Shown here in pieces: positions 1 through 40,181 of a stretch of 57,974 nucleotides of DNA (position 1 is its first letter; each line of letters opens with the position of its first letter). The position numbers were made by a program, and so were the translations under genes. The notes below the pieces were generated by a model. That model saw only the letters and a program-made list of their open reading frames with translations. It had not been told where the DNA came from and searched no databases. The DNA lies in contig QKGR01000026.1 of NCBI GenBank assembly GCA_003250375.1, positions 1-57,974 on the forward strand, in the 5' to 3' direction. The stretch is from Candidatus Shapirobacteria bacterium. Lineage in GTDB: Bacteria > Patescibacteriota > Microgenomatia > UBA12405.

Positions 1-627
1 GTTACTTTACTTAATAATGATGGAGAAGTAGAAAAACAAAGCAGACCATTTGTGGCACAGACAGTGGAGGTGGAAAATCCAGAAGATGTGTTGTCCAGAA
101 AGATAAGTGTACTGGAAGAAGAGGCCAAAAAAGAGATTGATGAACACGAAAAAGTACTTGCAAAGGAAGAGGAGGAAAAGAAAAAAATGGAGGAAGAAAA
201 AATGAAGATGAATAAGCAATTTGGAGGAGAATTGCCTAAATACCAAGATTTGTTCAAATCATTTGGAAGTCAAAATAGCGGTGGAAGTGGTAGTGGAAAA
301 CTACCTCCCCTACCACCATTACCTCCATTACCAAAATATGACAACAAACAAAGTTTGCCTGTGACTAAAGATAATACACCTAATGATGGGGCAGTAAAGA
401 AAACGAGCGAGGTGATTAATAAAACAATAATGACTGATGTTGTTTCTAGTGGAGCAACGCCAGTGCCAAACGAAGTAAAGAGCGTGACTGATACTAAAGA
501 ATTACCAATAAAAGATGAGAAAGCAAAAGCAGAAATTAAGGTAGAAGTACAACAAAAAGATGGAAATACGGCTGGTAATGATATTGATAAGAAATACGAC
601 GACTTGTTTGGAAATGGGATAGTGTAA
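1..627 (+). CDS. hypothetical Lys/Glu-rich protein with PPLPPLPPLP tract; 5' end may lie outside the window
   Basis: ORF track 52..627 (GTG). The same frame has no stop from base 1. Highly charged N-half and a Pro-rich tract, with no domain recognised. Confidence 0.4.
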   Translation, partial: VTLLNNDGEVEKQSRPFVAQTVEVENPEDVLSRKISVLEEEAKKEIDEHEKVLAKEEEEKKKMEEEKMKMNKQFGGELPKYQDLFKSFGSQNSGGSGSGKLPPLPPLPPLPKYDNKQSLPVTKDNTPNDGAVKKTSEVINKTIMTDVVSSGATPVPNEVKSVTDTKELPIKDEKAKAEIKVEVQQKDGNTAGNDIDKKYDDLFGNGIV

Positions 628-665: not shown

Positions 666-3600
666 ATGGCACAAGGAAATATTGGACAAAATAATGTAGC
701 TGGAGTGCTAAGGGAAGTTAAGGAGCTGCGTGATAAAACTAAGACTTTTGATGGACTGAGTGAAGAAAGTAAATTGGTGATCGAAAAGTATGGAGCGGAA
801 ATTAATAGTAATGAAAGTTTGAATGAACTAATTACCTTTATTGATGTAGAACTGATTATTGAAAAGGATTTGTCGATTGAAGGATTGCTTGATAAGATCG
901 ATGAAAACAGATTATTAGATGATGATTCTGAAGATGATGGTGATTGGAATAAGGGAATTCCTGAAGAGAAAGAAGAAGATAATGAAGATGATCGGAACAA
1001 CGGAATTCCTGACGAAGAAGAAAGCGTCCCAAGTTCGGAGATAGAATTGGAAAGTAAGGTGCCGGATAGGATTTTGATGGAGGAATTGCTAAGAGAGTTG
1101 GATGAGCATGAAAAGAGTAAAGATAAGAGTAAATTATTGGAAAGTGCAAAAAAACTAGCAGAAAAGAAAGGTTATGCGAAAATTCGAGACCAAGTTGAAA
1201 GACTAATTGAGAAAAAAGTTGAATTGGAAGGAAAGATTGAAAGTGAACTTAGCACTAAGCAAATTAGCAGTGAAGAAAAAGAGATAGTAAGTGAAAGACT
1301 AAGCGAGGCGGTGGCCATAAGTTCAATAGCAATGGAGAACGAGAAGGCTGATAGTGCTGAAATTGCAAAAGTAGAAGAAGAAATTATTAAGAATGTCGAT
1401 AAATTGCTAGTAAACGAAGATACAGAGTTGTATAAGGCCGGAAGAGTAGTAGAAAATATTATTGATAAGGTAAATATTGAGGAAAGTAAAAAAGAACTAT
1501 TGGTTGAAAGTATAAGAGATGAATTAAGTGAAATTAGTGTGGAGAGAATAGCTTCCAAAGAAGCAGAAGAAATAATTCAGAGTTTTGAAGAGTTGAATAT
1601 TGCTAAAGAGACAAAGGTAAAAATTAGGGAAAGAATCGAAGAAAGGATTGTGGAGGTATATAGGGGTAACTTAATTGCAGTAGAATCGAGCCGAGTAGAC
1701 AGGAGTTCGGGACAAAGTAATACAGTGAGAATTGAAGATGAAATTAGACAAATAATAGAAGAAAGTAATACTTTGGGGGATGCAAAACAAATATCGAAGG
1801 ATATTACACAAAGAATTGAGGTAGCACTTAAGGAACCAAGAACAATTACAGATAATAGCGGACAAACAGTAGTATTACCTAGTTTGAATGATGAAATTAA
1901 AGTTAATACTCAAGAAAAAGCAGAGATTGTAGGTGGTTTTAGAAAAAATCTGATTGTAAGAGAATCGGTTGAAGTAGCATTGGAGGCTTGGAATAGGGGT
2001 GAAATTAGTGTTGAGGAAGTTGATGGAGCGTATGAGTCGGCAAGAATTGCAGCAAGAACGGCGTATCCAGATGGTGATTTTGTAAGAAACGAGAATAAAA
2101 TTGAGGAAAAAAATGAGAAAGGAAAGGAATTTTCGAAAATAATTAGTGGAATGGTGAGGAGTGAAACTCCAATTGAGGAACAAGTAAAAGAAGCAAGAGC
2201 AGCAATAAATAAAACAGGCAAGATTTACAATAAACTTCCAATTGAAGTAAAAGCGTTGGATAAGATCAGTTCAGAACTGGAAAAGAATAAGCCACTGGCA
2301 GAATTTTTTGAAAGGGTACGAAAGTTTACGGTGGCAAAAAGAAAAGCCGAGGAAAGGGTGTGGAGAGTAGCCAGCGATGTGGGTAGGTCGGTGGCAAAAA
2401 GCTTGGGAGTAAATATTACTTCGGAAACAATAAACAATATGGCTTTTATTGCCAGTGGTGGTTTGACGAGTCAGGCAATGTGGGCAATTGGACACCAGAT
2501 TATGTCGGGAGCTTTGCCGGCAACACTCGAAGGTATTGGAGCAGTATACACGAGTGGTGGATTTATGGCTGGGGCAACCCAAGCTTTTGAGTCCTTAGGA
2601 TTGTTAAACACACAGGGTGGAGTGGCAGCTTTGTCGTGGCTGGGGAAAGCAAGTGCAAACTTGAATAGCGTAGGAGCTAGAATTGCAGCAAGAAGCCCTG
2701 GTTTGGCAAAATTTGGATCGACAATTTCTAAACCGGTAGTAAATGGTTTGGGAAAAGGAATAAGTTCGGCGGCAAGATGGGCTAGTAGAGTAATACCAGC
2801 AGTGGCGAGTAAAATTGCTGCAATTGGGGGGAGCTTGGCACAGGCTTTGGTAGCATTACCAGAGCTAATTGGAGGAGCAATAGCAGCAATAATTCCGATT
2901 ATTGCAATTGTTGTTGTGGCGGTAATTGTGGGAATATTTGTAATTGCACTGATAAATGGGATGCAAACAGCTTCGGTAGTACCACCACCAACGGAAAATG
3001 TGAGTTGTGTACTTCTTGAAGATACAAAAGAAAATCAAGAAAGTGGACAGATTAACTGTAATCAGAGTTTGGATGAAAAGAATGTGCCTGGAGTAGATAG
3101 AGATAATTTCTTTAGAATGGCAGATCAGTGGAGAGGTGGAACAAATTATGCGAGAGAATGCTATAACGACGTGGTATGTAGAGCGAGATCGGTAGGTGTG
3201 GATGAAGCTTTTGCTTTGTGGGTGTGGTTGCATGAATCGGGAGCAAGTAATTATTCAATTAATGAGGTGGAAGATTTTGGAATACATGGACAGGCTGAAG
3301 TGCCAGTGAAGAATTTTGATAAACAAATTGATTACTTTTTAAGGTTGAGCCATACCAATGCTTGTCCAAATCTTGATTTTTGGCTGGGATGGTCGACTAA
3401 ATACTTAACAGGTGGGTGTGATCCTGACAAATTAGTAGGAGTGAACACAGGTAGGACATATTTGGCGGCATTACAGCAACAATATAATTGGATTACTTCA
3501 AAACCATTGCCGGCGCAAATTAAGAAAAATGGGACAGGAGAATCATGTGGATCGGGAGCTGATTATTCTGATGATAATACAAGTTATACCTATGTGGATG

Positions 3601-4175
3601 AAAACGGAGCAACTTGGCTTTGTAAGAATGAACCTGGATTATCAGCTCCGGGAGGACCAATTGTAGTACCTGATTTTCCTGACTGGGATCCAAACACACC
3701 CGTACCGGAAGGTTGTCCTAATAGATTACCAGTAAGCGGCGGACGTTATACGCAGGGACCTAATGCACCAAATTGTTCTCATCAAAGCATGTCTTCGCCG
3801 GCAATCGATATTGGAATAGGAGGAGGAAGTCCAATTTATGCGACACATACAGGAGTGGTGTCGTATGGAGCAGATAATATTTATGGTTATTATATTGATG
3901 TACATGGAACTTGTAATGGTACACCTTTCTTTACAAGATATGCTCATATGCCAGCAAATGGATACATGGTTGAGAACGGAGCGACAGTACAAGCAGGAGA
4001 AAGGATTGGAACGGTTGACAACACAGGGAGTTCAACAGGAAATCATATTCATTATCATATTAATGGTTTGGATAAAAGTTTATTTGGACAATATCTGGGA
4101 ATAACACCAGCAAAACTAACACAACTATGGGGGTGCTGTGGAAGTCAAAATGGAAAAATATGTCCAAGCATATAA
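666..4175 (+). CDS. giant membrane-anchored putative cell-wall hydrolase: acidic coiled-coil N-region, one TM, C-terminal M23/LytM peptidase domain
   Basis: 1169-aa ORF. Residues ~1-740 are E/K-rich and repetitive. One hydrophobic helix, AIAAIIPIIAIVVVAVIVGIFVIALI. M23-type motifs SPAIDIG..GSPIYATHTGVV and TGSSTGNHIHYHI. A weak SLT-like ES motif (WLHESGASNY) lies upstream of the M23 part. Confidence 0.7.
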   Translation: MAQGNIGQNNVAGVLREVKELRDKTKTFDGLSEESKLVIEKYGAEINSNESLNELITFIDVELIIEKDLSIEGLLDKIDENRLLDDDSEDDGDWNKGIPEEKEEDNEDDRNNGIPDEEESVPSSEIELESKVPDRILMEELLRELDEHEKSKDKSKLLESAKKLAEKKGYAKIRDQVERLIEKKVELEGKIESELSTKQISSEEKEIVSERLSEAVAISSIAMENEKADSAEIAKVEEEIIKNVDKLLVNEDTELYKAGRVVENIIDKVNIEESKKELLVESIRDELSEISVERIASKEAEEIIQSFEELNIAKETKVKIRERIEERIVEVYRGNLIAVESSRVDRSSGQSNTVRIEDEIRQIIEESNTLGDAKQISKDITQRIEVALKEPRTITDNSGQTVVLPSLNDEIKVNTQEKAEIVGGFRKNLIVRESVEVALEAWNRGEISVEEVDGAYESARIAARTAYPDGDFVRNENKIEEKNEKGKEFSKIISGMVRSETPIEEQVKEARAAINKTGKIYNKLPIEVKALDKISSELEKNKPLAEFFERVRKFTVAKRKAEERVWRVASDVGRSVAKSLGVNITSETINNMAFIASGGLTSQAMWAIGHQIMSGALPATLEGIGAVYTSGGFMAGATQAFESLGLLNTQGGVAALSWLGKASANLNSVGARIAARSPGLAKFGSTISKPVVNGLGKGISSAARWASRVIPAVASKIAAIGGSLAQALVALPELIGGAIAAIIPIIAIVVVAVIVGIFVIALINGMQTASVVPPPTENVSCVLLEDTKENQESGQINCNQSLDEKNVPGVDRDNFFRMADQWRGGTNYARECYNDVVCRARSVGVDEAFALWVWLHESGASNYSINEVEDFGIHGQAEVPVKNFDKQIDYFLRLSHTNACPNLDFWLGWSTKYLTGGCDPDKLVGVNTGRTYLAALQQQYNWITSKPLPAQIKKNGTGESCGSGADYSDDNTSYTYVDENGATWLCKNEPGLSAPGGPIVVPDFPDWDPNTPVPEGCPNRLPVSGGRYTQGPNAPNCSHQSMSSPAIDIGIGGGSPIYATHTGVVSYGADNIYGYYIDVHGTCNGTPFFTRYAHMPANGYMVENGATVQAGERIGTVDNTGSSTGNHIHYHINGLDKSLFGQYLGITPAKLTQLWGCCGSQNGKICPSI

Positions 4176-4196: not shown

Positions 4197-5165
4197 ATGA
4201 ATAAGAAAAAAATTTTGATGGGAGTGGCAAGTGTGGGAATGGTAGGATTTTTGGTTTGGAACTTGTTTGGTAAAAAAACAAATCAAAATGGAGATATAGG
4301 AATTGATATACAGGCACCGGTTGAAGTAGTACCTATGGAAAGAGCAGCTAGGATTAGTTGGCAAATAAGTGGAGATAATTTGCCTAAAACAGCGAATATT
4401 TATATTGGAGAAACTGGAAATGGAGAAAACTTAGATAGATTGCTGAGCGAAGTGGGACTAAGTAGAAGTGAAGTAATTTCGGATGATCCACAAACTATTT
4501 TTTTGGGCAACAGTGCGACAAGAAAGAATGTATACATGTCTAAAAGTAATGGGAAGATAGGATTTAGTTTGGATATTTATTCGAGTGAGGATATACCTAA
4601 AGGAAACTTATTGAACGAAACAGAGGCGGAAGAAAAATTAGTGGACTTGATTAAAAGAATTGAAAATAATGATAAATTGGGGATAAAAATTAATTCGATA
4701 AAGTATAAAAAGGTACTTTTCCCAAGATGGGTAGAATCGACGAAGTCTGAGGCTGATGCGGTTGAGATCAGTGCCTCATGGACAATTGAGGGAATAGAAG
4801 TAAAAACATTTTATGATTCCCCTATTTTGGCTGTGTTTGGAAGAGGGGGAACAATAATTAAGCTGGAATATGTACCATTGGCAAAAGTTAATGAAAAGAA
4901 AGAAGTAAATTTGTTGAGTCTGACTGAAATACAAACTTTGAGTGAAGATAATTTTGGAATATGGAAAAAGGAAGGAAACACAAGTTATAGTTTGAGTGAA
5001 GATAAAGAAATTGTGGGACAAATAGTGGTAAGATCGATTGAATTGATTTATGTACAAGGAGATAGAAGTGAAAAGATTTGGCCTTATTATTTGATTGAAG
5101 GTAATAGTATTAGTAAAAATAATGGGCCAATTAAGGTGTATTTGATGGTTCGAGCAACAAAATAA
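4197..5165 (+). CDS. hypothetical membrane-anchored protein
   Basis: 322-aa ORF with N-terminal TM ILMGVASVGMVGFLVW. TAAAAT (4185-4190) lies 6 nt before the ATG. Confidence 0.55.
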   Translation: MNKKKILMGVASVGMVGFLVWNLFGKKTNQNGDIGIDIQAPVEVVPMERAARISWQISGDNLPKTANIYIGETGNGENLDRLLSEVGLSRSEVISDDPQTIFLGNSATRKNVYMSKSNGKIGFSLDIYSSEDIPKGNLLNETEAEEKLVDLIKRIENNDKLGIKINSIKYKKVLFPRWVESTKSEADAVEISASWTIEGIEVKTFYDSPILAVFGRGGTIIKLEYVPLAKVNEKKEVNLLSLTEIQTLSEDNFGIWKKEGNTSYSLSEDKEIVGQIVVRSIELIYVQGDRSEKIWPYYLIEGNSISKNNGPIKVYLMVRATK

Positions 5166-5166
5166 T

Positions 5167-5538
5167 ATGGAAAAAAGAGGTTTTTGGCAAAGATATGGAT
5201 TGGTTTTAGTTTTGGGAATAGTGGCGGTGTTGATGGTGGCAATTAAGATTAGATATAGCAAGGTGGAATGGGTAGTAGAAAACGAGAATGCGACAGTAAT
5301 TTTGACACCAACAGAGATACCTAAACCAACAGAAAGAGTACTACAGAATATGGACTATCCTTTGTGGCAAGAGTTGCCGTATAAGGGAGAGGGGTTTGTG
5401 ATTGATAGATATATTAATGAAAGTACGGTGGTGGTAATACCAAAGGGCTTGGATAAGAAGATTGTGGAGAAAGAGGTATGGAATTGGTTTGAAGAGAATA
5501 ATGTGGCTACAGAGGAAATGAAGATATCCTGGGAGTGA
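5167..5538 (+). CDS. hypothetical membrane-anchored protein
   Basis: 123-aa ORF with N-terminal TM. The ATG is 1 nt after the preceding stop, so it is probably co-transcribed. Confidence 0.5.
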   Translation: MEKRGFWQRYGLVLVLGIVAVLMVAIKIRYSKVEWVVENENATVILTPTEIPKPTERVLQNMDYPLWQELPYKGEGFVIDRYINESTVVVIPKGLDKKIVEKEVWNWFEENNVATEEMKISWE

Positions 5539-5578
5539 AATAAATTTGATTCTTGAAGGGCGATTCGTGAGCTTTGAA

Positions 5579-5603
5579 GGGCGGGTGCAAGACCCGCCCG
5601 TAC
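5579..5603. repeat. family A GC-rich hairpin repeat GGGCGGGTGCAAGACCCGCCCGTAC
   Basis: Stem GGGCGGGT/ACCCGCCC with loop GCAAG. A truncated variant (GGGCGATTCGTGA) lies at 5558-5570. Confidence 0.9.
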
Positions 5604-5625
5604 AGTACATATTATGTTTGTAATT

Positions 5626-5634
5626 TGTTAAATT
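5626..5634 (+). promoter_or_regulatory. extended -10 box TGTTAAATT, 5 nt before ATG 5640
   Basis: Read directly. Confidence 0.45.
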
Positions 5635-5639
5635 TAATT

Positions 5640-5915
5640 ATGAAGAAATTATTAATAATAGCTTTGGTAGTAGTTAGTGGTTTGGGATTGGGAGGTTGTA
5701 CTAGCAGCGAGCCAAGCGAAAATAAAAGTACGGGAGTAGTGGAAATTAAGGGAACTTTGACGACAAAAATGGGAGATGAATATTTACTTAATACTGAAAG
5801 TGGAATAATAAACATAACAAGCAATATAGTGAATTTAGACAAAGAAATCGGGAAAGAGATTAAGGTAAAAGGAATGTACAGCGGGTCGACCTTGTATGTG
5901 GATGAGATTGAATAA
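5640..5915 (+). CDS. small lipoprotein
   Basis: MKKLLIIALVVVSGLGLGGC is a signal peptide plus lipobox. The track start at 5574 would translate a family A repeat (MKGGCKTRPY), so the internal ATG is preferred. Confidence 0.55.
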   Translation: MKKLLIIALVVVSGLGLGGCTSSEPSENKSTGVVEIKGTLTTKMGDEYLLNTESGIINITSNIVNLDKEIGKEIKVKGMYSGSTLYVDEIE

Positions 5916-24770: not shown

Positions 24771-25042
24771 ATATAAATGATATTAGAAAAGTACTTGATG
24801 GCGCTAAGTTGTGTGCTGAAAACAGAAAGAAAGCAGAAAAAGTATTTGAAAGGATGAAAAGCGAGGGAGTGACGGATTTACTTAGAGGCCAGCTTGTACA
24901 AATAATTAATGATGAGTTGGAGATGAATAAAACAGAAGCTGCTTATTTTCGTGATTTGAGGACAACAATAGATAATATACTTGATGATGCAGAAAAACGC
25001 CTAAGAATGGCAGATGAAGAGATTGAGGAAGGAGAAAAATAA
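24767..25042 (+). CDS. hypothetical small helical protein
   Basis: 91 aa. ATGA start/stop overlap with the upstream gene suggests translational coupling. Confidence 0.5.
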   Translation: MNINDIRKVLDGAKLCAENRKKAEKVFERMKSEGVTDLLRGQLVQIINDELEMNKTEAAYFRDLRTTIDNILDDAEKRLRMADEEIEEGEK

Positions 25043-27319: not shown

Positions 27320-28939
27320 TTAATTTGACTCTGGTTGTTGCGGTGCTTTGGTAAGCCCAGCTTTGCTGGCTGCCCACCCAAAGCCTGTACCGACAGCACC
27401 TTGAATACCTTTATCAGCTGCAGCTTTGGAGTTCTTATACAAACCTCCAATTACAGGGATATTTTCAAGCATAACTGATTTACCAATAGCAGAACCCCAT
27501 GGAGATGGTTTGAGGGAGAAGATGACCTGAGGAATCATTTCGGGTAATTTTGATAGAAGAATGAAGGAGCCAATGCCGAAAAGGGCGGCGATGAGACGGC
27601 CACCAAAAGCGGCACCAGCAACACCCATAATGGATGGAGTCCAGAGACCACCGCCTTGGATTCGTTCCATAATAACATTGGAAAATACTAGGAAAATAAG
27701 GACAAAAGGGAAGACGGCTAAGTTGGCAATGAGATCCCAAATCCAATTTGAAAAACCAGCTTTGGAACCCGGAAAGGCACCCATGCCAATTTCGAAAGGA
27801 GCAAGAATGACTTTGAGAAGAACATTGATGTAGACAGAAATTAGACTGAAAAGAAAACCGATTAATTTGATAAGGACTACAACACCGATAATAAGTAGCA
27901 TAAGGGCGGTGAATCCACCCCCACCAATGAGTAATCCTGCACCGGCAGTGATTGGAGAGCCGAAACCTCCACTAAAGAAGAACCCGGCAATACCACCAAT
28001 AATAAAACTGAGTAGGGCGATGAAAGTGGTAGGAACAAGTCTGGAAGTAAGATCGAAGGTTTGAAGAAAACCGTTATTTTGAACTAAATCTGAGAGATTG
28101 TAGGCTGTGTAGGATCCGCCAAAAAGACCACTAAGAGCAGACATAAGACTTTGTCCAAGTCCTGGTTGGATAATACTATCGGCTGATCCAACACCAAGAG
28201 CTGAGAACATAGCACTGATGGCGACACCCTGGATGATGTAGCTGAGATCGATGAGAAGGCCAGCTATGGCATAGGAGAAGCTAACAAGAATAAGAGTGGT
28301 GATAACTTGGGGAATGGCTGCCTGAATGGTGATGACAGCTTGAGGAGAGATTTTGACACGAAGGACAACCATGAGACCGATGATGATAATGACAATGGAA
28401 GACAAAAGATAGACGACATTACGGAAACCTCGCCAAACGGGAAGGAGTGGTTGGAGACCGGTGAATCCGGCACCTTGGGCATAGGCAGGCTTACCAAGAA
28501 AATTATCGAAAGATGAGGCGATATATTCAACACCAGAGGCTGGTTTTTGGTAGAGATAGCCGATCATTTGAGTGGTACCACCAATGGCACCACCAGGGAC
28601 CCAGTTGAGGGTGTTGCCATTGTCGTCGATGAAATTTCCATTGAGAAGATCGTCGGCTTGACCTTTGATGTTCCAAATTAAATCAACAAGAGAGGTGAGA
28701 AAGTCGTTTTGAAGGGAACCGTCGTTGAAAAGAGTGCGGTTGGGGGAGGCAGTGCCGAGAGTGGCGGTTTTGTAGTTGAGTAGGGCGGAAGCAGTTTGAG
28801 TTTGGGCAAGAACAGCACGAGAAAAGTTGACAAGAGTGAGGATGGTAAGAATGAGAACAGCGAATTTGAAGAATTTCGGTTTGGAGATTATTGTTTGATC
28901 TTTACGGTTAAGTTGGTGGAGGAAATTCTTGATGGACAT
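27320..28939 (-). CDS. polytopic membrane protein, VirB6/TrbL-like (tentative)
   Basis: N-terminal signal/TM, a ~110-aa exported segment, then >=7 Gly-rich TMs. Adjacent to the pilin-like gene array. ATG 28939 is preferred over 28957 (TGATAAAAT lies 8 nt upstream). Confidence 0.45.
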   Translation of the reverse strand: MSIKNFLHQLNRKDQTIISKPKFFKFAVLILTILTLVNFSRAVLAQTQTASALLNYKTATLGTASPNRTLFNDGSLQNDFLTSLVDLIWNIKGQADDLLNGNFIDDNGNTLNWVPGGAIGGTTQMIGYLYQKPASGVEYIASSFDNFLGKPAYAQGAGFTGLQPLLPVWRGFRNVVYLLSSIVIIIIGLMVVLRVKISPQAVITIQAAIPQVITTLILVSFSYAIAGLLIDLSYIIQGVAISAMFSALGVGSADSIIQPGLGQSLMSALSGLFGGSYTAYNLSDLVQNNGFLQTFDLTSRLVPTTFIALLSFIIGGIAGFFFSGGFGSPITAGAGLLIGGGGFTALMLLIIGVVVLIKLIGFLFSLISVYINVLLKVILAPFEIGMGAFPGSKAGFSNWIWDLIANLAVFPFVLIFLVFSNVIMERIQGGGLWTPSIMGVAGAAFGGRLIAALFGIGSFILLSKLPEMIPQVIFSLKPSPWGSAIGKSVMLENIPVIGGLYKNSKAAADKGIQGAVGTGFGWAASKAGLTKAPQQPESN

Positions 28940-28947
28940 GATAGGTA

Positions 28948-28956
28948 ATTTTATCA
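28948..28956 (-). promoter_or_regulatory. extended -10 box TGATAAAAT (minus strand), 8 nt before ATG 28939
   Basis: Read on the reverse complement. Confidence 0.45.
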
Positions 28957-28963
28957 TAAATTG

Positions 28964-30421
28964 TTATTGGCAGATGCCTAGCTGTTGCTGTTGTTCGATG
29001 GTGTAGAAATAGCATTTGAAGAGGTTGTCGTAGGTGACAATGGAATCGTTGCCAGGAGAAGCAGAGATGTTTTTGTCGGAGGTGGCATTGGCTTGGAGAG
29101 AATCGAGTTGATATTTGCTTTGGTCCTCGAGAGTGGTGTAATTGCGAAGCATGGTGTTGAAACTATTGAAAACTTGTTGTTGTTTGGCGGGTTGGACTTG
29201 TTTAATGACAATAGTTTCTGAATGGGTGACAAGAGTGTCTGTAACCCAAATTTGGAGACGATTGACTAAATCTTTGACGTAGGCCATGAAACTGATAGGA
29301 TTTTTTTCGTCGATGGTTTCGTTGTCGGTGGTGTCGGCACAGGGATCGCGGGTGATGAGTTTTTGACCGGAACCGATGCGATGGCTGTAGATATTTTTGG
29401 AATTGTCGCCGTGGTTGGCGCCAAAAGGAATGGCACGTTGGATTATGGTGGGGGTGACACTACTGTCCTCTTCGATGTTGTAGACAATTAATTCTTCGTT
29501 GGTGGAACCAATAGGAGAGAGGGCTAAGTTTTTGTAGATAGTTTTGGCGTAGGAGGTGGTACCAGTACTGCCAATAAGTCCAAGGATACTGTCTGCTGGA
29601 GGACAGCGTTCTTCGCCATACTTACTGACACAACTATTGTAGGTGACATTGATGGCTGATTCGAGAGAATAGGCTTTGGTTTTGGCGGTACATTCGGCAT
29701 AGTAATCGTAAAATATGGGAGAACCTTTGAGTGAGTTGGCGATTTGGGAGAGGAAAATGTTGGTGTTGGATTTGATTTTGGAGGAACAGCGACCGCCCAG
29801 ATCGTAGGCAACAGGCATGTCGTTGCTGACATTGTCGGGGAGGGAAAGATCCTTGTAGAGAGAAAAAATAGAACCGACAAGGTGGCGACCTTTGAGGCAT
29901 TCCTGTTCTTGGAGAGTGGTGGAGCGATCGGACATGTTGAGGCCTTCGAGGAGGTTGTAGTTGGCTAATTGATTGTGAACTTCGTCGTCGGAAGCACAAA
30001 CATCGGGTTTGTTGGTGGTGTAGAGGGCAGTGTCGCGATTTTTGACGGCGAGGGCGGTGTTGGGAGCAACGCCAGTTTGAACTTGTCGAACTAAGTAGGG
30101 GTCGTAGCCGATCACCTCAGTGATGGTTTCACCGGTGTTGGGATCGACGGTGGTGGCTGTTTTTTCTTTAGGTTCGAAAGAATTGGTGATGGTGTAGCTT
30201 CGGCTACAGATGTCTTGAGTGTCGTTTTTGACAGCATTGGCATTGTTGCCAGAAAAAGTTGATTGAAGATCGCCGGCAGGGGCTGGTTGACGCTGAGAAT
30301 ATGGAGTTCTAACGGCTGGATAGACTAAAGTTGAACTTGATTGGGCTAAAATTTGGGGTGGAGTAAGGGAGTATTGAAAAAAGAGAGCGAGAAGTAAAAA
30401 AAGAAGAGGGAGCTTCCTCAT
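28964..30421 (-). CDS. secreted Cys-containing protein of unknown function
   Basis: The internal ATG 30421 gives the signal peptide MRKLPLLFLLLALFFQYSLTPPQILAQ. The track start at 30499 overlaps the upstream gene. Confidence 0.55.
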   Translation of the reverse strand: MRKLPLLFLLLALFFQYSLTPPQILAQSSSTLVYPAVRTPYSQRQPAPAGDLQSTFSGNNANAVKNDTQDICSRSYTITNSFEPKEKTATTVDPNTGETITEVIGYDPYLVRQVQTGVAPNTALAVKNRDTALYTTNKPDVCASDDEVHNQLANYNLLEGLNMSDRSTTLQEQECLKGRHLVGSIFSLYKDLSLPDNVSNDMPVAYDLGGRCSSKIKSNTNIFLSQIANSLKGSPIFYDYYAECTAKTKAYSLESAINVTYNSCVSKYGEERCPPADSILGLIGSTGTTSYAKTIYKNLALSPIGSTNEELIVYNIEEDSSVTPTIIQRAIPFGANHGDNSKNIYSHRIGSGQKLITRDPCADTTDNETIDEKNPISFMAYVKDLVNRLQIWVTDTLVTHSETIVIKQVQPAKQQQVFNSFNTMLRNYTTLEDQSKYQLDSLQANATSDKNISASPGNDSIVTYDNLFKCYFYTIEQQQQLGICQ

Positions 30422-30426: not shown

Positions 30427-30810
30427 TTATGGGCCAGGAATAGTGAAATCGATAATGTTGACGCCGGTGAAATTGTTGATGAAGAGAATGACTAGCCAAG
30501 AAATGACGATGCCGACGAGGCCGACGATGGCCATGGTAAGGGTGGATGAAGCGGCGGCAACTTTCTTTTGATCGTTGCTAGAAAAAAGATAATTGAAACC
30601 GCCAATGATAAACATAATGAAAAAAGCGAGACCAGCGGCATAGGAGATAATCTGGAGAAGATTATAGAAAAGACATTCGAGTCCTTGGATGGTGGCGACG
30701 TCGGTGTTGGCGACACAACGGCCGGTCCAAGCGGTTTGGGCAAAGGATGTTTTGGGGAAAGTGAGGGAAATGAGGGATAGGACAGGTAATAATTTAAGGC
30801 GTTTTAACAT
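30427..30810 (-). CDS. VirB2/TrbC-like T4SS mini-pilin paralogue 1
   Basis: Signal peptide, two TMs, and a shared loop motif GGFNYLFSSNDQKKVAAA. Confidence 0.6.
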   Translation of the reverse strand: MLKRLKLLPVLSLISLTFPKTSFAQTAWTGRCVANTDVATIQGLECLFYNLLQIISYAAGLAFFIMFIIGGFNYLFSSNDQKKVAAASSTLTMAIVGLVGIVISWLVILFINNFTGVNIIDFTIPGP

Positions 30811-30815
30811 GGCAT

Positions 30816-30824
30816 ATTATAGCA
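30816..30824 (-). promoter_or_regulatory. extended -10 box TGCTATAAT (minus strand), 5 nt before ATG 30810
   Basis: Read on the reverse complement. Confidence 0.55.
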
Positions 30825-30828
30825 AAAG

Positions 30829-30852
30829 TTGATCAGATAATCAGTTTGTCAG
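30829..30852. repeat. TCAG-type microrepeat (TTGATCAG ATAATCAG TTTGTCAG)
   Basis: Read directly. Confidence 0.8.
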
Positions 30853-30866
30853 ATAAAAGAAATATG

Positions 30867-30912
30867 AAACCCACCCGCCCTACGGGCACCCTCCCTTGAA
30901 AAAGGAGGGTGG
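30867..30912. repeat. family D element (AAACCCACCCGCCCTACGGGCACCCTCCCTTGAAAAAGGAGGGTGG)
   Basis: Second copy at 52575-52619. Confidence 0.85.
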
Positions 30913-30949
30913 ATGTGAAATATAAAAGGGGAAACTGAGAAAAATTGAA

Positions 30950-30987
30950 GAAACAAAAAAATCCCCCAGGTTGCCCTAGGGGATTTT
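30950..30987 (-). terminator. rho-independent terminator after pilin paralogue 2
   Basis: 8-bp stem AAATCCCC/GGGGATTT plus 3 inner pairs, followed on the minus strand by TTTTTTTGTTT. Confidence 0.55.
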
Positions 30988-30999
30988 GATTGACGAAAA

Positions 31000-31383
31000 T
31001 TAGGCTCCAGTTTGAACTGAGGGAATAGTGAGATTGAGAATGTTGATGCCGAAGACGAGTTCGATGAGCTTAACGATGGCCCAAGCAGCAAAGACAATGG
31101 CCAAACCAATGAGAGCATTGGTAATTTGATTGCGAGCAGCTTCGACATTCTTTTGATCGCCACCAGACATGACCCATTTGAGTCCGCCCCAGACGAGCAT
31201 GAAGAAGAAAACTAAAGCAACGATTAACATGACTAAGGAAATGGCTCCAGAGACTAAGCTAGCAGGAGTGATGTTGGTGAGACCTTCAAATTCACCATTG
31301 GGAGAGAGGTTGAGCTCTCTTTGAGCTAGTGCAGGAACTGCTAAGGCTGCCATTTGGACTTTGTGGGACAGTTTTTTGAACAT
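31000..31383 (-). CDS. VirB2/TrbC-like T4SS mini-pilin paralogue 2
   Basis: Two TMs, with loop WGGLKWVMSGGDQKNVEAA. Confidence 0.6.
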   Translation of the reverse strand: MFKKLSHKVQMAALAVPALAQRELNLSPNGEFEGLTNITPASLVSGAISLVMLIVALVFFFMLVWGGLKWVMSGGDQKNVEAARNQITNALIGLAIVFAAWAIVKLIELVFGINILNLTIPSVQTGA

Positions 31384-31443
31384 TTTGTCTATGTGTTGAT
31401 AAATTTTTAATATAACGGTATTTTAACAGGATTATTGTTATTT

Positions 31444-31806
31444 TTAAAGTGTGAGAGAAGGAAGACTAATTTGGAGATTGGCAAGGTTGTCGAGACCGAA
31501 AGCTAAACCAAGTAATTTGAGAATGGCAAAGATGGAGAAAACAACAACAACTCCGAGAACGGCGTTGGTGAGAGAATTGCGACCTTCTTCGAGCTTCTTG
31601 GCATCACCCTGGGAGGTGATAATACGAATACCACCGTTGATGAAATGATAAACGAAGAAAATTACCGCAATAATGATGAACCAATTGAAGAAAGTTTGGA
31701 CTAAATTTTGAGTGGTAGTAATAGGGTCGGGGTTGCTGGTGCAATTGGGATTAAAAAGAGTATTGCAGACTTCGGCGTAAACTGGTTTGACTAGTTGAAA
31801 ATTCAT
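31444..31806 (-). CDS. VirB2/TrbC-like T4SS mini-pilin paralogue 3
   Basis: Two TMs, with loop INGGIRIITSQGDAKKLEEG. Confidence 0.6.
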   Translation of the reverse strand: MNFQLVKPVYAEVCNTLFNPNCTSNPDPITTTQNLVQTFFNWFIIIAVIFFVYHFINGGIRIITSQGDAKKLEEGRNSLTNAVLGVVVVFSIFAILKLLGLAFGLDNLANLQISLPSLTL

Positions 31807-31812
31807 GTTGAT

Positions 31813-32172
31813 TTAGAGACCTAAGCTGGTGAAGAATCCGTTGAGATCGAGGATGCTTTGAATGCCAGCAAGTCGGCCGAGTAAATTGGTAAGTGTGACA
31901 GCAACAACAACGACGACAATACCGAGAATGCCGTTGGTAATTCTGGTTTTGGCAGCATCGAGACGTTTGGGATCGCCTTGGGAAGAAATGAATTCATAGC
32001 CAGCAAAGATAATTTGGATGGCAAAAAAGATGAAAGCTACGACAGAAAGAACACCAATGACAACACTAATTATTCGTTCCATGGTGACGACTGGAGTGCC
32101 GGTAGGGTCGACACCTGGACCAGTGAGTTGGTAGGTGGCGGCTTGAGCGTAAAGTGTATGAATGAGACTCAT
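31813..32172 (-). CDS. VirB2/TrbC-like T4SS mini-pilin paralogue 4
   Basis: The in-frame ATG 32172 (MSLIHTLYAQAA..) avoids overlap with paralogue 5. Loop FAGYEFISSQGDPKRLDAA. Confidence 0.6.
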   Translation of the reverse strand: MSLIHTLYAQAATYQLTGPGVDPTGTPVVTMERIISVVIGVLSVVAFIFFAIQIIFAGYEFISSQGDPKRLDAAKTRITNGILGIVVVVVAVTLTNLLGRLAGIQSILDLNGFFTSLGL

Positions 32173-32174
32173 AG

Positions 32175-32501
32175 TTAGTTGATAGTAGGATTGAGAATAT
32201 TTAAACCTGTAAGTCGACCGACAACGGCAGCAATGGTGAAGGCAGAGGCGATAATGACTAAACCAAGAATAGCCTGCCAAATTTTTGTCCAGGCTTGTTC
32301 GGTCTTTTTGACGTCGCCGTTGGCGGAAATGTACATGTAGCCAGCGAGGACAAACTGAACGACCATGACAATGCCAGCGATGACAGCGGCAAATTTGAGA
32401 ACATTGCTAAGAAAGAGAAATAAGCCCTGGCCTTGAGTACCAGCAGTGGTGTACTTGCTTAATTGTGTTGGTGCTTGGATGTTGCCGAATATGCCAGCCA
32501 T
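32175..32501 (-). CDS. VirB2/TrbC-like T4SS mini-pilin paralogue 5
   Basis: Two TMs, with loop LAGYMYISANGDVKKTEQA. Confidence 0.6.
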   Translation of the reverse strand: MAGIFGNIQAPTQLSKYTTAGTQGQGLFLFLSNVLKFAAVIAGIVMVVQFVLAGYMYISANGDVKKTEQAWTKIWQAILGLVIIASAFTIAAVVGRLTGLNILNPTIN

Positions 32502-32544
32502 AAATTCAATTTTTAATTTTCAATTTATAATTTTAAATTAGTTT

Positions 32545-32877
32545 CTAAATACCGGAATTGAGAATTCTCATGCCGGTGATGACTTCGACTATCTGAATAA
32601 TAAAGAAAGCTAAGAAAACAACAGCGAAGCCAATTAGAGCGTCGGTAATGATGGCTTGTGCCTGTGCGGACTTTTTGGGGTCGCCACTACCTGCGGAAAT
32701 TATATAGTTAACTCCGCCAAAAATCAAAAGGACAACCAAAAGAACACTAATGACAGCAAAGGAGTTGCGGAGGATGGAGGAGACGAGGACGGAGGCATCG
32801 GAATAGGCGCCGGAGAGATTGACACCATTGGCAATGGGGGTGTCGGAACCGATGTTGACTGCGAGCAGCGATTTCAT
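32545..32877 (-). CDS. VirB2/TrbC-like T4SS mini-pilin paralogue 6
   Basis: Two TMs, with loop FGGVNYIISAGSGDPKKSAQA. TAGAAT (32885-32890, minus strand) lies 7 nt before the ATG. Confidence 0.6.
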   Translation of the reverse strand: MKSLLAVNIGSDTPIANGVNLSGAYSDASVLVSSILRNSFAVISVLLVVLLIFGGVNYIISAGSGDPKKSAQAQAIITDALIGFAVVFLAFFIIQIVEVITGMRILNSGI

Positions 32878-33015
32878 TGCCTTTATTCTATAATATAAAC
32901 AGAGATTTTTAAATATTGCAGTTGGAAGTAAAATCTTGGATTTTTGGGCTTTATCTGTTATTATACGCCGAGGTCAAAATTTAATATTTAATAAGTTATA
33001 AATTTACCCTATTCT

Positions 33016-33957
33016 ATGAGAAAATATTTAATAGTACTGATGGTAAGTTTGATGTTTGTGGTGGGCGGAAAAAGAGAGGTTTTGGGGGTGGTGGAGCCTG
33101 TGGCTTCCGAAAGTGCGGTTGAAGCAACGATGGCAGCAACAATTGAGCCAACAGCAACTGTGGTTCCAGTGAAAGAAAATATTACTGAACCTGGTGAGAA
33201 AAATGTGAGTTATAGATTGGAGTCGGTACTAGATAGCCAGGAAGTGGGAAAATGGAATGGGTTGAATTCTTTGAAGTGGTTAGTGAGACTAGCGGTGAGC
33301 AGAGGGGTGGCAGCTAATACTATAGTATTGTTGCTTTTGTTGCCAATGGTGGCAACGATTGTGTCGGTGCTGCATTATGTGTTTGGGGTGACTGGATACG
33401 GAATTTTTACCCCAACAATGGTGGCAATTACTTTTTTGGCAACGGGAATTTTTGGAGGATTGGCTTTGTTTGCAATGATTTTGGGAATTTCGATTGTGGC
33501 TAATATGTTTTTGAAGAAGCTGAAATTGCATTTTTGGCCAGCCAGGTCGATGGGTCTGGTATTTATTTCAATAGGAGCTTTCTTGTTGATGATTTTGTCG
33601 TCTTATTTTGAGCTAATTAATTTGTCGAAGGTGTCGATTTTCCCGGTTCTCCTGATGATTTTGTTGGCAGAAGATTTTGTGAGAACCCAGCTAGTGAAGA
33701 GTAAAAGTGAGGCAAAAAAGCTAACGATTGGGACCCTAATTTTGTCGATGGTGGGTGCTTTGGGGATGTCGGTGAGAGTGGTACAAGAATCGGTGATACT
33801 GCACCCAGAGATTGTGATTGTGGCAGTACTGGTAATTAATTTGTGGGTAGGAAGCTACAGTGGGATAAGATTGACTGAAATTGGTAGATTTAAAGAAGCA
33901 GTTAGAGTGAAGAACAAGAAGCAAGATTCAAGATTCAGGATTCAGGATAAAAAATAA
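33016..33957 (+). CDS. 7-TM membrane protein (7TM_transglut-like, without transglutaminase domain; tentative)
   Basis: 313 aa: signal-like N-terminus, a ~90-aa exported part, then 7 hydrophobic helices. First gene of the ATP-grasp cluster. Confidence 0.45.
   Translation: MRKYLIVLMVSLMFVVGGKREVLGVVEPVASESAVEATMAATIEPTATVVPVKENITEPGEKNVSYRLESVLDSQEVGKWNGLNSLKWLVRLAVSRGVAANTIVLLLLLPMVATIVSVLHYVFGVTGYGIFTPTMVAITFLATGIFGGLALFAMILGISIVANMFLKKLKLHFWPARSMGLVFISIGAFLLMILSSYFELINLSKVSIFPVLLMILLAEDFVRTQLVKSKSEAKKLTIGTLILSMVGALGMSVRVVQESVILHPEIVIVAVLVINLWVGSYSGIRLTEIGRFKEAVRVKNKKQDSRFRIQDKK
33925..33947. repeat. 7-nt microrepeat inside CDS 3' end (GATTCAA GATTCAG GATTCAG GA)
   Basis: Translated as DSRFRIQD. 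Confidence 0.75.
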
Positions 33958-33975
33958 GATACAAAATATAGAATT

Positions 33976-35361: not shown

Positions 35362-35377
35362 TATGAAAATACTGCAA

Positions 35378-35467
35378 CTTGATAATAAATTTTTCGTACT
35401 CGCTACCTTCGGGCTCGGCGTAAGCTGGCTCGCGTTCGCTGCGTGCGAAAAATTAATTATCTTCGTT
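35378..35467. repeat. family C palindromic element
   Basis: Same core as 17660-17744. Arms GATAATAAATTTTT / AAAAATTAATTATC. Confidence 0.9.
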
Positions 35468-35499
35468 GCTTTAGTTTGAATAAAAATTAACTTAATAAT

Positions 35500-36558: not shown

Positions 36559-36568
36559 ATGATAATAG

Positions 36569-36657
36569 ACTCGATACTAAATTTTTAGTGCTCGCTACCT
36601 TCGGGCTCGGCGTAAGCTGGCTCGCGTTCGCTGTGCTCTAAAAATTTAGTATCTTCG
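36569..36657. repeat. family C palindromic element
   Basis: Arms GATACTAAATTTTTA / TAAAAATTTAGTATC. Core identical to the other copies. Confidence 0.9.
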
Positions 36658-36683
36658 TCTAGATATATATTTAAATAAATAGT

Positions 36684-40116: not shown

Positions 40117-40181
40117 CACTTTGTAATAATCGAATAGTCATCTGGGTCGGACCCAGCCTACGCAAGCTTCGGCGGGCAAAG

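What the first reader, a model, noticed from the sequence alone, without database searches (positions are those of the whole stretch)
30427..32877. Six tandem paralogues of a VirB2/TrbC-like mini-pilin
Seen: six consecutive minus-strand genes of 108-127 aa are separated by 2-190 nt. All have the same architecture: an N-terminal signal or leader, TM1, a conserved loop (G)G..Y/W.(I/M)S..GD.KK....A, and TM2. The loops are GGFNYLFSSNDQKKV, GGLKWVMSGGDQKNV, NGGIRIITSQGDAKKL, AGYEFISSQGDPKRL, AGYMYISANGDVKKT and GGVNYIISAGSGDPKKS. Their N-terminal exposed parts are very divergent. Established: this two-TM hairpin layout is that of T4SS pilins (VirB2/TrbC; the Pfam T4SS_pilin family common in Gram-positives and CPR). 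Usually there are one or two copies, so a six-gene array with diversified exposed regions is unusual. A terminator (30950-30987) and a separate strong promoter (TGCTATAAT) split paralogue 1 from paralogues 2-6. Inference: the array may encode a heteropolymeric or variable surface filament, possibly the host-contact structure of an episymbiont.
Basis: partly seen in the sequence, partly recalled or inferred. Interest (0 to 1): 0.66.

Follow-up and report, generated by a model that had tools for sequence, protein, structure and literature searches.

The report
Conserved six-pilin T4SS array in a CPR bacterium
The six small tandem genes are real type IV secretion "pilin-like" genes of an ultrasmall (Patescibacteria/CPR) bacterium, but such arrays are already described, and here the six copies are an ancient fixed set kept in the same order in about 60 related species, not a variable one.

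Summary
Six minus-strand genes (108-127 aa) lie at 30427-32877. Each has two hydrophobic helices joined by a GD.KK loop, and each scores above Pfam's cutoff for PF18895 T4SS_pilin.

The "unusual" claim does not hold. VirB2-like arrays of 2-11 genes are published for 383 Patescibacteria assemblies, mostly Microgenomatia and Saccharimonadia. A six-pilin array is essential in Southlakia epibionticum.

What this analysis adds:
- In 58 related loci (mostly Ca. Shapirobacteria) there are exactly six pilins in the same order. They form six 1:1 orthologous groups. Identity is 45-59% within a group and 21-27% between paralogues.
- The fifth gene (31000-31383) is the most conserved and the only one ever duplicated. 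It has its own extended -10 box and a conserved intrinsic terminator, so it is probably the major subunit.
- The sixth gene starts a leaderless unit. That unit continues into a fast-evolving secreted protein and a conserved polytopic membrane protein whose best fold matches, though weak, are VirB6.
- The window begins inside the 3' end of virB4, so the secretion ATPase is about 30 kb away, on the far side of dnaA.

Verdict: this is a new member of a known kind. It looks like a multi-component pilus or channel set, not a variable filament.

The parts
32545..32877 (-). Pilin paralogue, position 1 of the array (110 aa)
   Evidence: PF18895 E 1.2e-7. It is a 1:1 orthologue in 57/57 other six-gene loci. 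Its N-terminal motif LLAV.IG...PLG.G is conserved within the group.
32175..32501 (-). Pilin paralogue, position 2 (108 aa); no signal-peptide-like N-terminus
   Evidence: PF18895 E 6.6e-8. There is also a sub-threshold TrbC/VirB2 PF04956 hit at E 7.9e-4. Orthology holds in 57/57 loci. The motif M.G.FG.I.NPT is conserved from residue 1.
31813..32172 (-). Pilin paralogue, position 3 (119 aa)
   Evidence: PF18895 E 1.4e-7. Orthology holds in 57/57 loci. The motif KLLA....Y.L.GPG is conserved.
31444..31806 (-). Pilin paralogue, position 4 (120 aa)
   Evidence: PF18895 E 7.9e-10. Orthology holds in 56/57 loci. This is the least conserved group, with 45% mean pairwise identity.
31000..31383 (-). Pilin paralogue, position 5 (127 aa); probable major subunit
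   Evidence: It has the best PF18895 score, E 3e-12. It is the most conserved group at 59%. It is the only position duplicated in loci with 7-8 pilins. It is flanked by its own promoter-like box and a terminator. The AF2 model shows a leader helix at 3-19 and a hairpin at 40-72/77-111. NCBI names homologues 'pilin'.
30427..30810 (-). Pilin paralogue, position 6 (127 aa); classic Sec signal peptide, then two conserved Cys
   Evidence: PF18895 E 6.2e-9. Orthology holds in 57/57 loci. The mature N-terminus AQ..W.G.CV...DVATIQG.ECLF is conserved.
32885..32913 (-). Promoter-like site upstream of position 1 (TTTAAA-17-TAGAAT, 7 nt before the ATG)
   Evidence: Found by the scan. A TATAAT-like box lies 5-14 nt before the ATG of position 1 in most of the 58 loci.
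31420..31448 (-). Internal promoter-like site for position 5 (extended -10 TGTTAAAAT at 31428-31420)
   Evidence: Found by the scan. TGnTAnnAT lies within the 60 nt upstream of the position 5 ATG in 47/58 loci, mostly at 22-43 nt.
30948..30987 (-). Intrinsic terminator between positions 5 and 6
   Evidence: A 13-bp stem plus T-run, -21.6 kcal/mol. A GC hairpin plus T-run lies after position 5 in 47/58 loci under strict criteria and 56/58 under loose criteria. After any other pilin the count is 0-2/58. The hairpin sequences differ between loci.
30816..30824 (-). Extended -10 box TGCTATAAT, 5 nt upstream of the ATG of position 6; implies a leaderless mRNA
   Evidence: Read directly from the sequence. 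A TAnnAT box is present upstream of the ATG in 55/58 loci, and in most of them it ends 5-6 nt before the ATG.
28964..30421 (-). Secreted, Cys-rich protein (485 aa) in the slot between position 6 and the membrane protein; fast-evolving, candidate adhesin or tip factor
   Evidence: It has a signal peptide and no other TM segment. There is no Pfam or NCBIfam hit. The slot is occupied in nearly all loci by a signal-peptide protein of 150-1093 aa, and only 9 of about 80 are BLAST-recognisable from the window protein. Identity to the nearest relative is 40% aa, against 81% and 71% for the adjacent pilins.
27320..28957 (-). Conserved polytopic membrane protein (545 aa); candidate divergent VirB6 analogue
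   Evidence: It has an N-terminal TM, an outside domain of about 110 aa and at least 6 TM helices. There are 703 homologues, none with a Pfam domain. It lies downstream of the array in every locus. The top five Foldseek PDB matches are all R388 TrwI/VirB6 chains, but they are weak: E 0.2-0.6, probability 0.44-0.63.
1..627 (+). 3' end of virB4 (the contig starts inside the gene)
   Evidence: BLASTP to the C-terminal tail of the 861-aa VirB4 of L083 (DUF87/AAA_10/P-loop_TraG) gives E 7e-10. Both share the PPLPPLPPLP stretch and the last residues LFGNGIV. Gene order downstream is collinear.
666..4175 (+). Membrane-anchored M23 peptidase (1169 aa); VirB1-like cell-wall hydrolase of the T4SS core cluster
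   Evidence: Peptidase_M23 E 1.6e-15. It has a TM at about 724-773. Its homologues sit directly after virB4 in L083 and L084.
4197..5915 (+). Three small single-TM proteins (322, 123 and 113 aa) conserved after the M23 gene
   Evidence: They match the 319/332-, 144- and 81-aa genes in the same positions in L083 and L084. Function is unknown, and their membership of the system is inferred from synteny only.

Best explanation
This is the Microgenomatia (Ca. Shapirobacteria-like) version of the Patescibacteria type IV secretion VirB2-like pilin array. Shown: six PF18895 pilin-like proteins form six ancient, individually conserved orthologous groups in a fixed order. Shown as sequence elements, though no transcript was measured: positions 1-5 lie between a promoter-like box and a conserved terminator; position 5 has an extra extended -10 box of its own; position 6 has a -10 box placed so that its mRNA would be leaderless. 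Position 6 is followed by a fast-evolving secreted protein and a conserved polytopic membrane protein. Shown: the virB4 ATPase gene and an M23 cell-wall hydrolase lie on the same contig, about 26-30 kb away on the other side of dnaA/dnaN. Inferred mechanism: the six proteins insert in the membrane as helical hairpins with the GD.KK loop facing the cytoplasm. They are then extracted by the VirB4-powered machine on a VirB6-like platform (27320-28957) to build one heteromeric surface structure. Position 5 would supply the bulk (major subunit). The other five would have fixed specialised roles such as priming, base or tip, as minor pilins do in type II secretion and type IV pili. The variable secreted protein (28964-30421) is the likeliest host-contact element.
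For: - Family membership: all six score above the PF18895 cutoff. Homologues are precomputed as PF18895 and named 'pilin' by NCBI. All six weakly hit NF045849, a pilin-like conjugal transfer protein.
- Fixed set: 58 loci have exactly six pilins. The best hit in another locus falls at the same position in 95-100% of comparisons. Each group has its own conserved N-terminal motif. dN/dS is about 0.09-0.13.
- Position 5 stands out: it has the highest conservation and is the only position duplicated. It has an extended -10 box in 47/58 loci and a terminator in 47-56/58 loci, against 0-2/58 elsewhere.
- Leaderless geometry at position 6 is conserved.
- Operon partners are conserved in synteny.
- The best fold matches of the membrane protein are VirB6 chains.
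- A VirB4 fragment and a collinear T4SS core are present.
- Published context: such arrays exist, they are essential in S. epibionticum, and virB4 lies near dnaA in Microgenomatia (PMC12102498, PMC10633639, PMC12857230).
Against: - No filament has been seen in any Patescibacterium, and monoderm T4SSs normally lack pili.
- There is no detectable sequence similarity to a bona fide VirB2 (TrwL) by hhalign or to any solved pilin. Foldseek with the pilin model returns only generic helical hairpins.
- The VirB6 assignment rests on non-significant fold matches. hhalign against TrwI and PrgH finds nothing.
- The major/minor roles are inferred from promoter and terminator motifs and from conservation, not from expression data.
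- dS is saturated, so the dN/dS values are rough.
- The array is not next to virB4.
Confidence: 0.62

Rival explanations
1. The six proteins are membrane-embedded parts of the translocation channel of a monoderm-type T4SS. They would act as small hairpin subunits lining or gating the pore, and no extracellular filament would be made.
For: The Patescibacteria T4SS derives from the monoderm MPF_FATA class, which lacks pili (PMC12102498). All six weakly match NF045849, a 'pilin-like conjugal transfer protein' of Mycoplasma ICEs, which are wall-less monoderms. There is no similarity to solved pilus subunits. A fixed stoichiometric set of six distinct subunits would suit a channel as well as a filament.
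Against: Position 5 has its own promoter and terminator and is occasionally duplicated. That suggests one subunit is needed in large excess, which is typical of a polymer. The conserved extracytoplasmic N-terminal motifs, including a disulfide-type Cys pair in position 6, suggest exposed, interacting surfaces.
Confidence: 0.24
2. The array is a diversification or antigenic-variation device. Under this view, duplicated pilins evolve fast to match different host strains or to evade recognition. This is the explanation proposed for Bartonella and Anaplasma VirB2 paralogues, and it is suggested for Patescibacteria in PMC12102498.
For: Identity between paralogues is low at 21-27%. Their N-terminal exposed parts differ. 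The analogy is drawn in PMC12102498.
Against: There is strict 1:1 orthology by position across 58 species. Copy number and order are invariant. Each group keeps its own N-terminal motif. dN/dS is about 0.1. The rapidly changing gene in the operon is the secreted protein, not the pilins.
Confidence: 0.07
3. They are unrelated small two-TM membrane proteins (holin-like, or transporter small subunits, as some JGI annotations say) that only resemble pilins.
For: The hairpin fold is generic. Some sources label homologues 'TRAP-type C4-dicarboxylate transport system permease small subunit'. Weak DctQ hits appear at E 0.016-0.05.
Against: All six pass the curated PF18895 threshold, while the DctQ and other hits fall far below theirs. 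No phage or lysis genes are nearby. The array is linked to a VirB6-like protein, and virB4 is on the same contig.
Confidence: 0.04

Closest known systems
VirB2-like pilin arrays of Patescibacteria (Quinonero-Coronel et al. 2025, PMC12102498)
   Same: Both are tandem PF18895/VirB2-like genes averaging about 25% identity. They are most abundant in Microgenomatia and Saccharimonadia, and virB4 lies near dnaA/dnaN. This window fits that description exactly.
   Different: In the parts read, the paper reports arrays of 2-11 genes and likens their variability to the antigenic-variation pilins of Bartonella and Anaplasma. In this lineage the number (six), the order and the orthology are fixed. The operon has conserved internal signals and two conserved partner genes. 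I did not find these points in the passages of that paper that I read.
Essential six-pilin array in the T4SS locus of Southlakia epibionticum ML1 (Wang et al. 2023, PMC10633639; reviewed in PMC12857230)
   Same: Both have six sequence-divergent, structurally similar VirB2-like pilins in a monoderm epibiont. In S. epibionticum they are essential for growth on the host.
   Different: In S. epibionticum the pilins lie inside the T4SS cluster (SEML1_0006-0019). Here they are about 26-30 kb from virB4, on the other side of dnaA.
VirB2/TrbC/TraA conjugative pilins (Pfam PF04956; R388 TrwL, Agrobacterium VirB2, F TraA)
   Same: All are small proteins with a leader, two hydrophobic helices and a short charged loop. 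All work with VirB4 and VirB6.
   Different: Only one of the six reaches E<1e-3 on PF04956, and none reaches its cutoff. hhalign against TrwL finds nothing. Canonical systems have a single pilin gene next to virB3/virB4.
Tandem VirB2 paralogues of Bartonella and Anaplasma
   Same: Both have several VirB2-like genes in a row.
   Different: Those are thought to provide variation. Here each copy is separately conserved.
Major/minor pilin sets of type II secretion and type IV pili (GspG-K; PilA plus FimU-PilVWXE)
   Same: The resemblance is in working logic only: a fixed set of diverged paralogues in conserved order, with one of them expressed separately as the bulk subunit.
   Different: The protein family and assembly machinery are unrelated (type IV prepilin leader, PilD, PilB). 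This is an analogy, not membership.
Mbov_0395 / MMCAP2_0565 pilin-like conjugal transfer protein of Mycoplasma ICEs (NCBIfam NF045849)
   Same: It is a two-TM hairpin protein of monoderm conjugation systems. All six window proteins hit it at E 3.6e-8 to 3.6e-3.
   Different: All scores (17-33 bits) are below the 40-bit cutoff. The ICE has a single copy, not an array.

Membership tests
Pfam PF18895 T4SS_pilin | Score at or above the curated gathering threshold (26.6 bits) | tested here: met
   All six score 31.9-46.8 bits. Precomputed PF18895 hits are recorded on the identical genes in L001 (one marked weak) and on 119 of the 120 listed homologues.
Patescibacteria VirB2-like pilin array (as defined in PMC12102498) | Two or more PF18895/PF04956-type genes in tandem (or separated by one gene) in a genome that also has VirB4 | tested here: met
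   Six genes are in tandem. A VirB4 3' fragment lies at window 1-627.
Patescibacteria VirB2-like pilin array (as defined in PMC12102498) | Host is a Patescibacterium | tested here: met
   Homologues and syntenic loci come almost entirely from Ca. Shapirobacteria, Woesebacteria and 'Patescibacteria group' MAGs. The window itself carries no name.
Canonical VirB2/TrbC pilin (Pfam PF04956) | Score at or above the PF04956 gathering threshold (27.9 bits) | tested here: not met
   The best is 20.0 bits, E 7.9e-4, for 32175-32501. One other (31000-31383) scores 11.4 bits, E 0.38; the remaining four have no PF04956 hit at E<=1. hhalign against R388 TrwL gives probability 0.1.
Canonical VirB2/TrbC pilin (Pfam PF04956) | Leader peptide plus two hydrophobic helices joined by a short charged loop | tested here: met
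   Shown by the alignment and by the AF2 model of position 5, with helices at 3-19, 40-72 and 77-111. Sec-type leaders are evident for positions 5 and 6 only.
Canonical VirB2/TrbC pilin (Pfam PF04956) | Fold match to a solved conjugative pilin | tested here: inconclusive
   The 50 Foldseek PDB matches listed include no pilin, and none of the 87 matches reaches E<=0.001. A two-helix hairpin is too simple for this test.
Canonical VirB2/TrbC pilin (Pfam PF04956) | Polymerises into an extracellular pilus | not testable with these tools
   This needs microscopy or biochemistry.
VirB6/TrbL (for the 545-aa protein at 27320-28957) | Polytopic inner-membrane protein with at least 5 TM helices | tested here: met
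   Shown by the hydropathy scan and the AF2 model, pLDDT 76.7 and above 85 across most of the TM bundle.
VirB6/TrbL (for the 545-aa protein at 27320-28957) | Sequence or profile similarity to VirB6, TrbL or PrgH | tested here: not met
   There is no Pfam hit even at E<=10 and no NCBIfam hit. hhalign against TrwI gives probability 0.2 and against PrgH 0.4. The profile search against PDB sequences finds nothing relevant.
VirB6/TrbL (for the 545-aa protein at 27320-28957) | Fold similarity to solved VirB6 | tested here: inconclusive
   The five best of 350,542 PDB chains are all R388 TrwI/VirB6. However, E is 0.2-0.6, probability 0.44-0.63 and TM-score (target) 0.28-0.40.
VirB4 (for window 1-627) | Similarity to a protein carrying the VirB4 ATPase domains | tested here: met
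   It matches only the C-terminal tail of the 861-aa DUF87/AAA_10/P-loop_TraG protein of L083, at E 7e-10 with the same terminal LFGNGIV. The ATPase domain itself lies outside the window.

The most novel reading that the evidence does not exclude
The patescibacterial T4SS may build a heteromeric pilus or channel from a fixed set of six non-interchangeable VirB2-like subunits: one major (position 5) and five minor. The set would be assembled on a highly diverged VirB6 platform and capped by a rapidly evolving secreted adhesin. The same six-member set may underlie the essential six-pilin array of Saccharibacteria, which would make it an ancestral host-contact organelle of the phylum. No T4SS is currently known to divide labour among pilins in the way type II secretion and type IV pili do.
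Probability: 0.3. Interest if true: 0.62.

Novelty: new member of a known kind. Interest (0 to 1): 0.36.

Why it matters
The T4SS and its pilin array are essential for the epibiotic life of the one Patescibacterium that has been tested, and what they do is unknown. The result here changes the working hypothesis for a whole class (Microgenomatia). The array is a fixed six-part set with one separately expressed member, a conserved membrane partner and a fast-evolving secreted partner. That points away from antigenic variation and towards a defined multi-subunit machine. It also tells experimenters which gene to tag as the bulk subunit (position 5). The secreted 485-aa protein family is the one to test for host specificity. 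And the 545-aa family is a candidate for the VirB6 that has seemed to be missing from Microgenomatia.

Tried and rejected
- Foldseek of the position 5 pilin model against the PDB returned only generic helical hairpins (HR1 domains, CnrX, chemoreceptor fragments). It was uninformative.
- Profile searches of the pilin alignment and of the 545-aa family against all PDB sequences gave only chance GPCR matches.
- hhalign of the family profiles against R388 TrwL (VirB2), R388 TrwI (VirB6) and pCF10 PrgH gave no signal. Each target was a single sequence, so sensitivity was low.
- Pfam at E<=10 and NCBIfam gave nothing for the 485-, 545-, 729-, 624- and 91-aa neighbours.
- The 729-aa convergent gene was considered as a possible VirB4 or VirD4. 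It was rejected because it has no Pfam/NCBIfam hit of any kind (so no ATPase domain) and no TM segment.
- dN/dS against the nearest relatives was computed, but dS is saturated at 1.5-2.9. Only the ranking of genes is trustworthy.
- Looking up the contig upstream of the window failed. The window is the whole 57,974-bp contig, and the only other copy found is a 5-kb fragment.
- The holin-like idea was rejected on family scores and gene context.


Full report
**1. The observation**

The six minus-strand ORFs exist as described:
- 32545-32877 (110 aa)
- 32175-32501 (108 aa)
- 31813-32172 (119 aa from the ATG; the mechanical ORF starts at a TTG at 32280 and would overlap its neighbour)
- 31444-31806 (120 aa)
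- 31000-31383 (127 aa)
- 30427-30810 (127 aa)

I number them 1-6 in the direction of transcription. The gaps are 43, 2, 6, 60 and 189 nt. The quoted loop sequences are all present. Pairwise identity is 21-27%. The loop G, D and K and a glycine in the second helix are invariant. All six pass the curated threshold of Pfam PF18895 T4SS_pilin, with 31.9-46.8 bits against a cutoff of 26.6 and E from 3e-12 to 1.4e-7. Only one (32175-32501) reaches E<1e-3 on the classical TrbC/VirB2 model PF04956, and none reaches its cutoff. All six also hit NCBIfam NF045849, the Mycoplasma ICE 'pilin-like conjugal transfer protein', below its cutoff. An AlphaFold2 model of gene 5 has a leader helix (3-19) and a helical hairpin (40-72, 77-111), with pLDDT around 90 across the hairpin core.

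**2. Where the window comes from**

The window is a complete 57,974-bp metagenomic contig of a Patescibacterium. It carries dnaN and dnaA (5963-8984), yidC, jag, ftsH, a 23S-5S rRNA pair and two tRNAs. Homologues of its genes and the syntenic loci come almost entirely from Ca. Shapirobacteria and other Microgenomatia MAGs.

**3. Already known**

Quinonero-Coronel et al. 2025 (PMC12102498) searched 3,035 Patescibacteria genomes with PF18895 and PF04956. [quoted passage not shown] They also report virB4 near dnaA/dnaN in Microgenomatia. Wang et al. 2023 (PMC10633639) found a series of predicted pilins inside the essential T4SS cluster of Southlakia epibionticum. A 2025 review counts six of them and calls the array essential (PMC12857230). 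NCBI already names homologues of gene 5 'pilin'. The finding is a further example of a described feature.

**4. What the comparison adds**

I used the conserved 545-aa protein downstream of the array (27320-28957; 703 homologues, none with a Pfam domain) to fetch 80 loci from one-genome-per-species assemblies. I then searched their six-frame ORFs with an HMM built from the window's six pilins.
- Fifty-eight of the fetched loci have exactly six pilin ORFs in tandem on the strand of the 545-aa gene. Three loci have seven or eight, one has six plus two elsewhere, and the others hold fewer pilin ORFs, mostly because the contig ends inside or just before the array.
- The best BLASTP hit of each pilin in every other locus falls at the same ordinal position in 95-100% of about 19,800 comparisons. 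For the window itself the figure is 56-57 of 57.
- Mean identity within an orthologous group is 45-59%, against 21-27% between paralogues.
- Each group has its own conserved N-terminal motif. Examples are AQ..W.G.CV...DVATIQG.ECLF with two cysteines in group 6, AAP.YAQ in group 5 and M.G.FG.I.NPT in group 2.
- The extra genes in the 7-8-copy loci are all group 5 duplicates, and truncated loci show the expected suffix of the order 1-2-3-4-5-6.
- Against the nearest relative (L087), dN/dS is 0.09 for gene 5 and 0.13 for gene 6. dS is saturated, so these values are rough.

The array is therefore an old, fixed, purified set of six different proteins. It is not a recently amplified or diversifying one.

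**5. Conserved signals inside the operon**

After any other pilin the count is 0-2/58. The stems differ in sequence between loci.

*Gene 6 promoter.* A TATAAT-like box is present upstream of the ATG of gene 6 in 55/58 loci, and in most of them it ends 5-6 nt before the ATG. In the window this is TGCTATAAT at 30824-30816, with the ATG at 30810. That geometry puts the transcription start on the start codon, which means a leaderless mRNA (inference).

*Gene 5 promoter.* Gene 5 has an extended -10 box (TGnTAnnAT) within the 60 nt upstream of its ATG in 47/58 loci, mostly at 22-43 nt. In the window it lies at 31428-31420.

*Gene 1 promoter.* Gene 1 has a TATAAT-like box 5-14 nt upstream.

Gene 5 is thus bracketed by its own promoter-like box and a terminator. 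It is also the most conserved group and the only one ever duplicated. I infer that it is the bulk (major) subunit.

**6. Partners**

Synteny across the loci is rigid. Reading along the strand of the array:
- upstream, on the opposite strand: RimK2, RimK1, ATPgrasp_ST and 7TM_transglut
- the array: pilins 1-5, then the terminator, then pilin 6
- next, on the same strand: a signal-peptide protein and then the 545-aa membrane protein
- then, on the opposite strand: a soluble protein of about 700-900 aa
- then DUF6909 on the array strand, followed by ftsH and DUF4012 on the opposite strand

*The secreted protein.* The protein in the slot after pilin 6 (window 28964-30421, 485 aa, Cys-rich, no Pfam hit) varies from 150 to 1,093 aa. 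It is BLAST-recognisable from the window protein in only 9 of about 80 loci, yet most versions link into one cluster. It is 40% identical to its counterpart in the nearest relative, where pilins 5 and 6 are 81% and 71% identical. This is the fast-evolving element, and so the better candidate for a host-contact or tip factor (inference).

*The membrane protein.* The 545-aa protein has an N-terminal TM helix, an outside domain of about 110 aa and at least six TM helices. Its AF2 model (pLDDT 76.7) returns the R388 TrwI/VirB6 chains as the five best of 350,542 PDB chains. The matches are weak: E 0.2-0.6, probability 0.44-0.63 and TM-score 0.28-0.40. Profile comparisons with TrwI and PrgH find nothing. 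PMC12102498 notes that VirB6 is 'scarce' in Microgenomatia and suspects extreme divergence. This family is a reasonable candidate, but that is not shown.

**7. The ATPase**

The ORF that runs off the left edge (1-627) matches the C-terminal tail of the 861-aa VirB4 (DUF87, AAA_10, P-loop_TraG) of a related contig at E 7e-10. It shares the PPLPPLPPLP stretch and the final LFGNGIV. In two relatives the gene order is PrgI-like, TraC/TrsD-like, VirB4, M23 peptidase and the first of the small membrane-protein genes (one relative, L083, has an extra ORF before the M23 gene). L083 continues with the other two small genes, then dnaN and dnaA on the opposite strand; L084's contig ends before them. This is collinear with window 1-8984. 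The T4SS core therefore sits on one side of dnaA, and the pilin operon sits about 26-30 kb away on the other side.

**8. Mechanism and rivals**

*Best explanation (confidence about 0.6).* The six hairpin proteins insert in the membrane with the GD.KK loop inside. A VirB4-driven machine on a VirB6-like platform assembles them into one heteromeric structure. Gene 5 is the bulk subunit and the others have fixed special roles. The variable secreted protein is the contact element.

*Main rival (about 0.24).* The six are membrane-channel subunits of a monoderm T4SS and no filament is made.

*Antigenic variation (about 0.07).* This is contradicted by the orthology, the invariant order and the constraint.

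*Unrelated holin- or transporter-like proteins (about 0.04).* This is contradicted by the family scores and the gene context.

What is shown: family membership, conservation, the operon sequence signals, synteny and the presence of virB4. What is inferred: topology, assembly, the major/minor roles, leaderless transcription and the VirB6 and adhesin assignments.

**9. Verdict**

Novelty: a new member of a known kind. The modest new content is the fixed six-group architecture, its internal signals and its two partner genes.

Noticed in passing
window 1-57974 (whole window); also L003-L082: The GC skew is extreme and strand-wide. G = 16,587 and C = 7,175, giving a skew of +0.40 that rises monotonically with no flip at dnaA/dnaN. 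At third codon positions the skew is +0.66 in plus-strand genes and -0.75 on the coding strand of minus-strand genes, so it is a mutational strand asymmetry. Related Shapirobacteria loci show the same magnitude, and none shows a sign change. Unexplained.
   Followed up: partly
window 40043-47070: The rRNA operon is split. tRNA-Ile (40043-40117) is separated from tRNA-Ala-23S-5S (43611-47070) by four protein genes, including a GH18 chitinase-like gene. No 16S rRNA is in the window.
   Followed up: no
window 33016-37667; L081 about 12000-17525: A cluster diverges from the pilin array: 7TM_transglut + ATPgrasp_ST + two RimK-like ATP-grasp ligases. It is syntenic with the array in about 55 loci. 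In the one rearranged locus (L081), two extra group 1-like pilin genes again sit beside it. This may be a functional link, such as peptide ligation onto pilins or the envelope, or it may be only conserved gene order.
   Followed up: partly
window 25058-27247 (+), also 22896-25042 (+): A soluble 729-aa protein with no detectable domain lies convergent to the pilin operon. A protein of 630-1,280 aa occupies the same position in nearly all loci, but it is BLAST-recognisable in only 21. The 624-aa acidic, low-complexity protein and the 91-aa protein upstream have no match in the loci.
   Followed up: partly
window 666-4175: The M23 peptidase carries an N-terminal extension of about 700 aa that is acidic and coiled-coil-like, placed before its TM segment. 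In relative L083 a separate 341-aa ORF occupies the corresponding position just upstream of a shorter M23 gene, which suggests gene fusion or fission; no sequence match between the extension and that ORF was found.
   Followed up: partly
window 38377-39981, 52735-54153, 55709-57700: Three proteins have C-terminal dockerin type I / EF-hand-like modules. This is unusual surface-protein content for a genome with no obvious cohesin partner in the window.
   Followed up: no
window 30811-30824, 32878-32890 and equivalent sites in 58 loci: Genes 1 and 6 of the array appear to be leaderless or nearly so, and none of the six has an obvious Shine-Dalgarno sequence. Leaderless translation may be common in this lineage.
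   Followed up: partly
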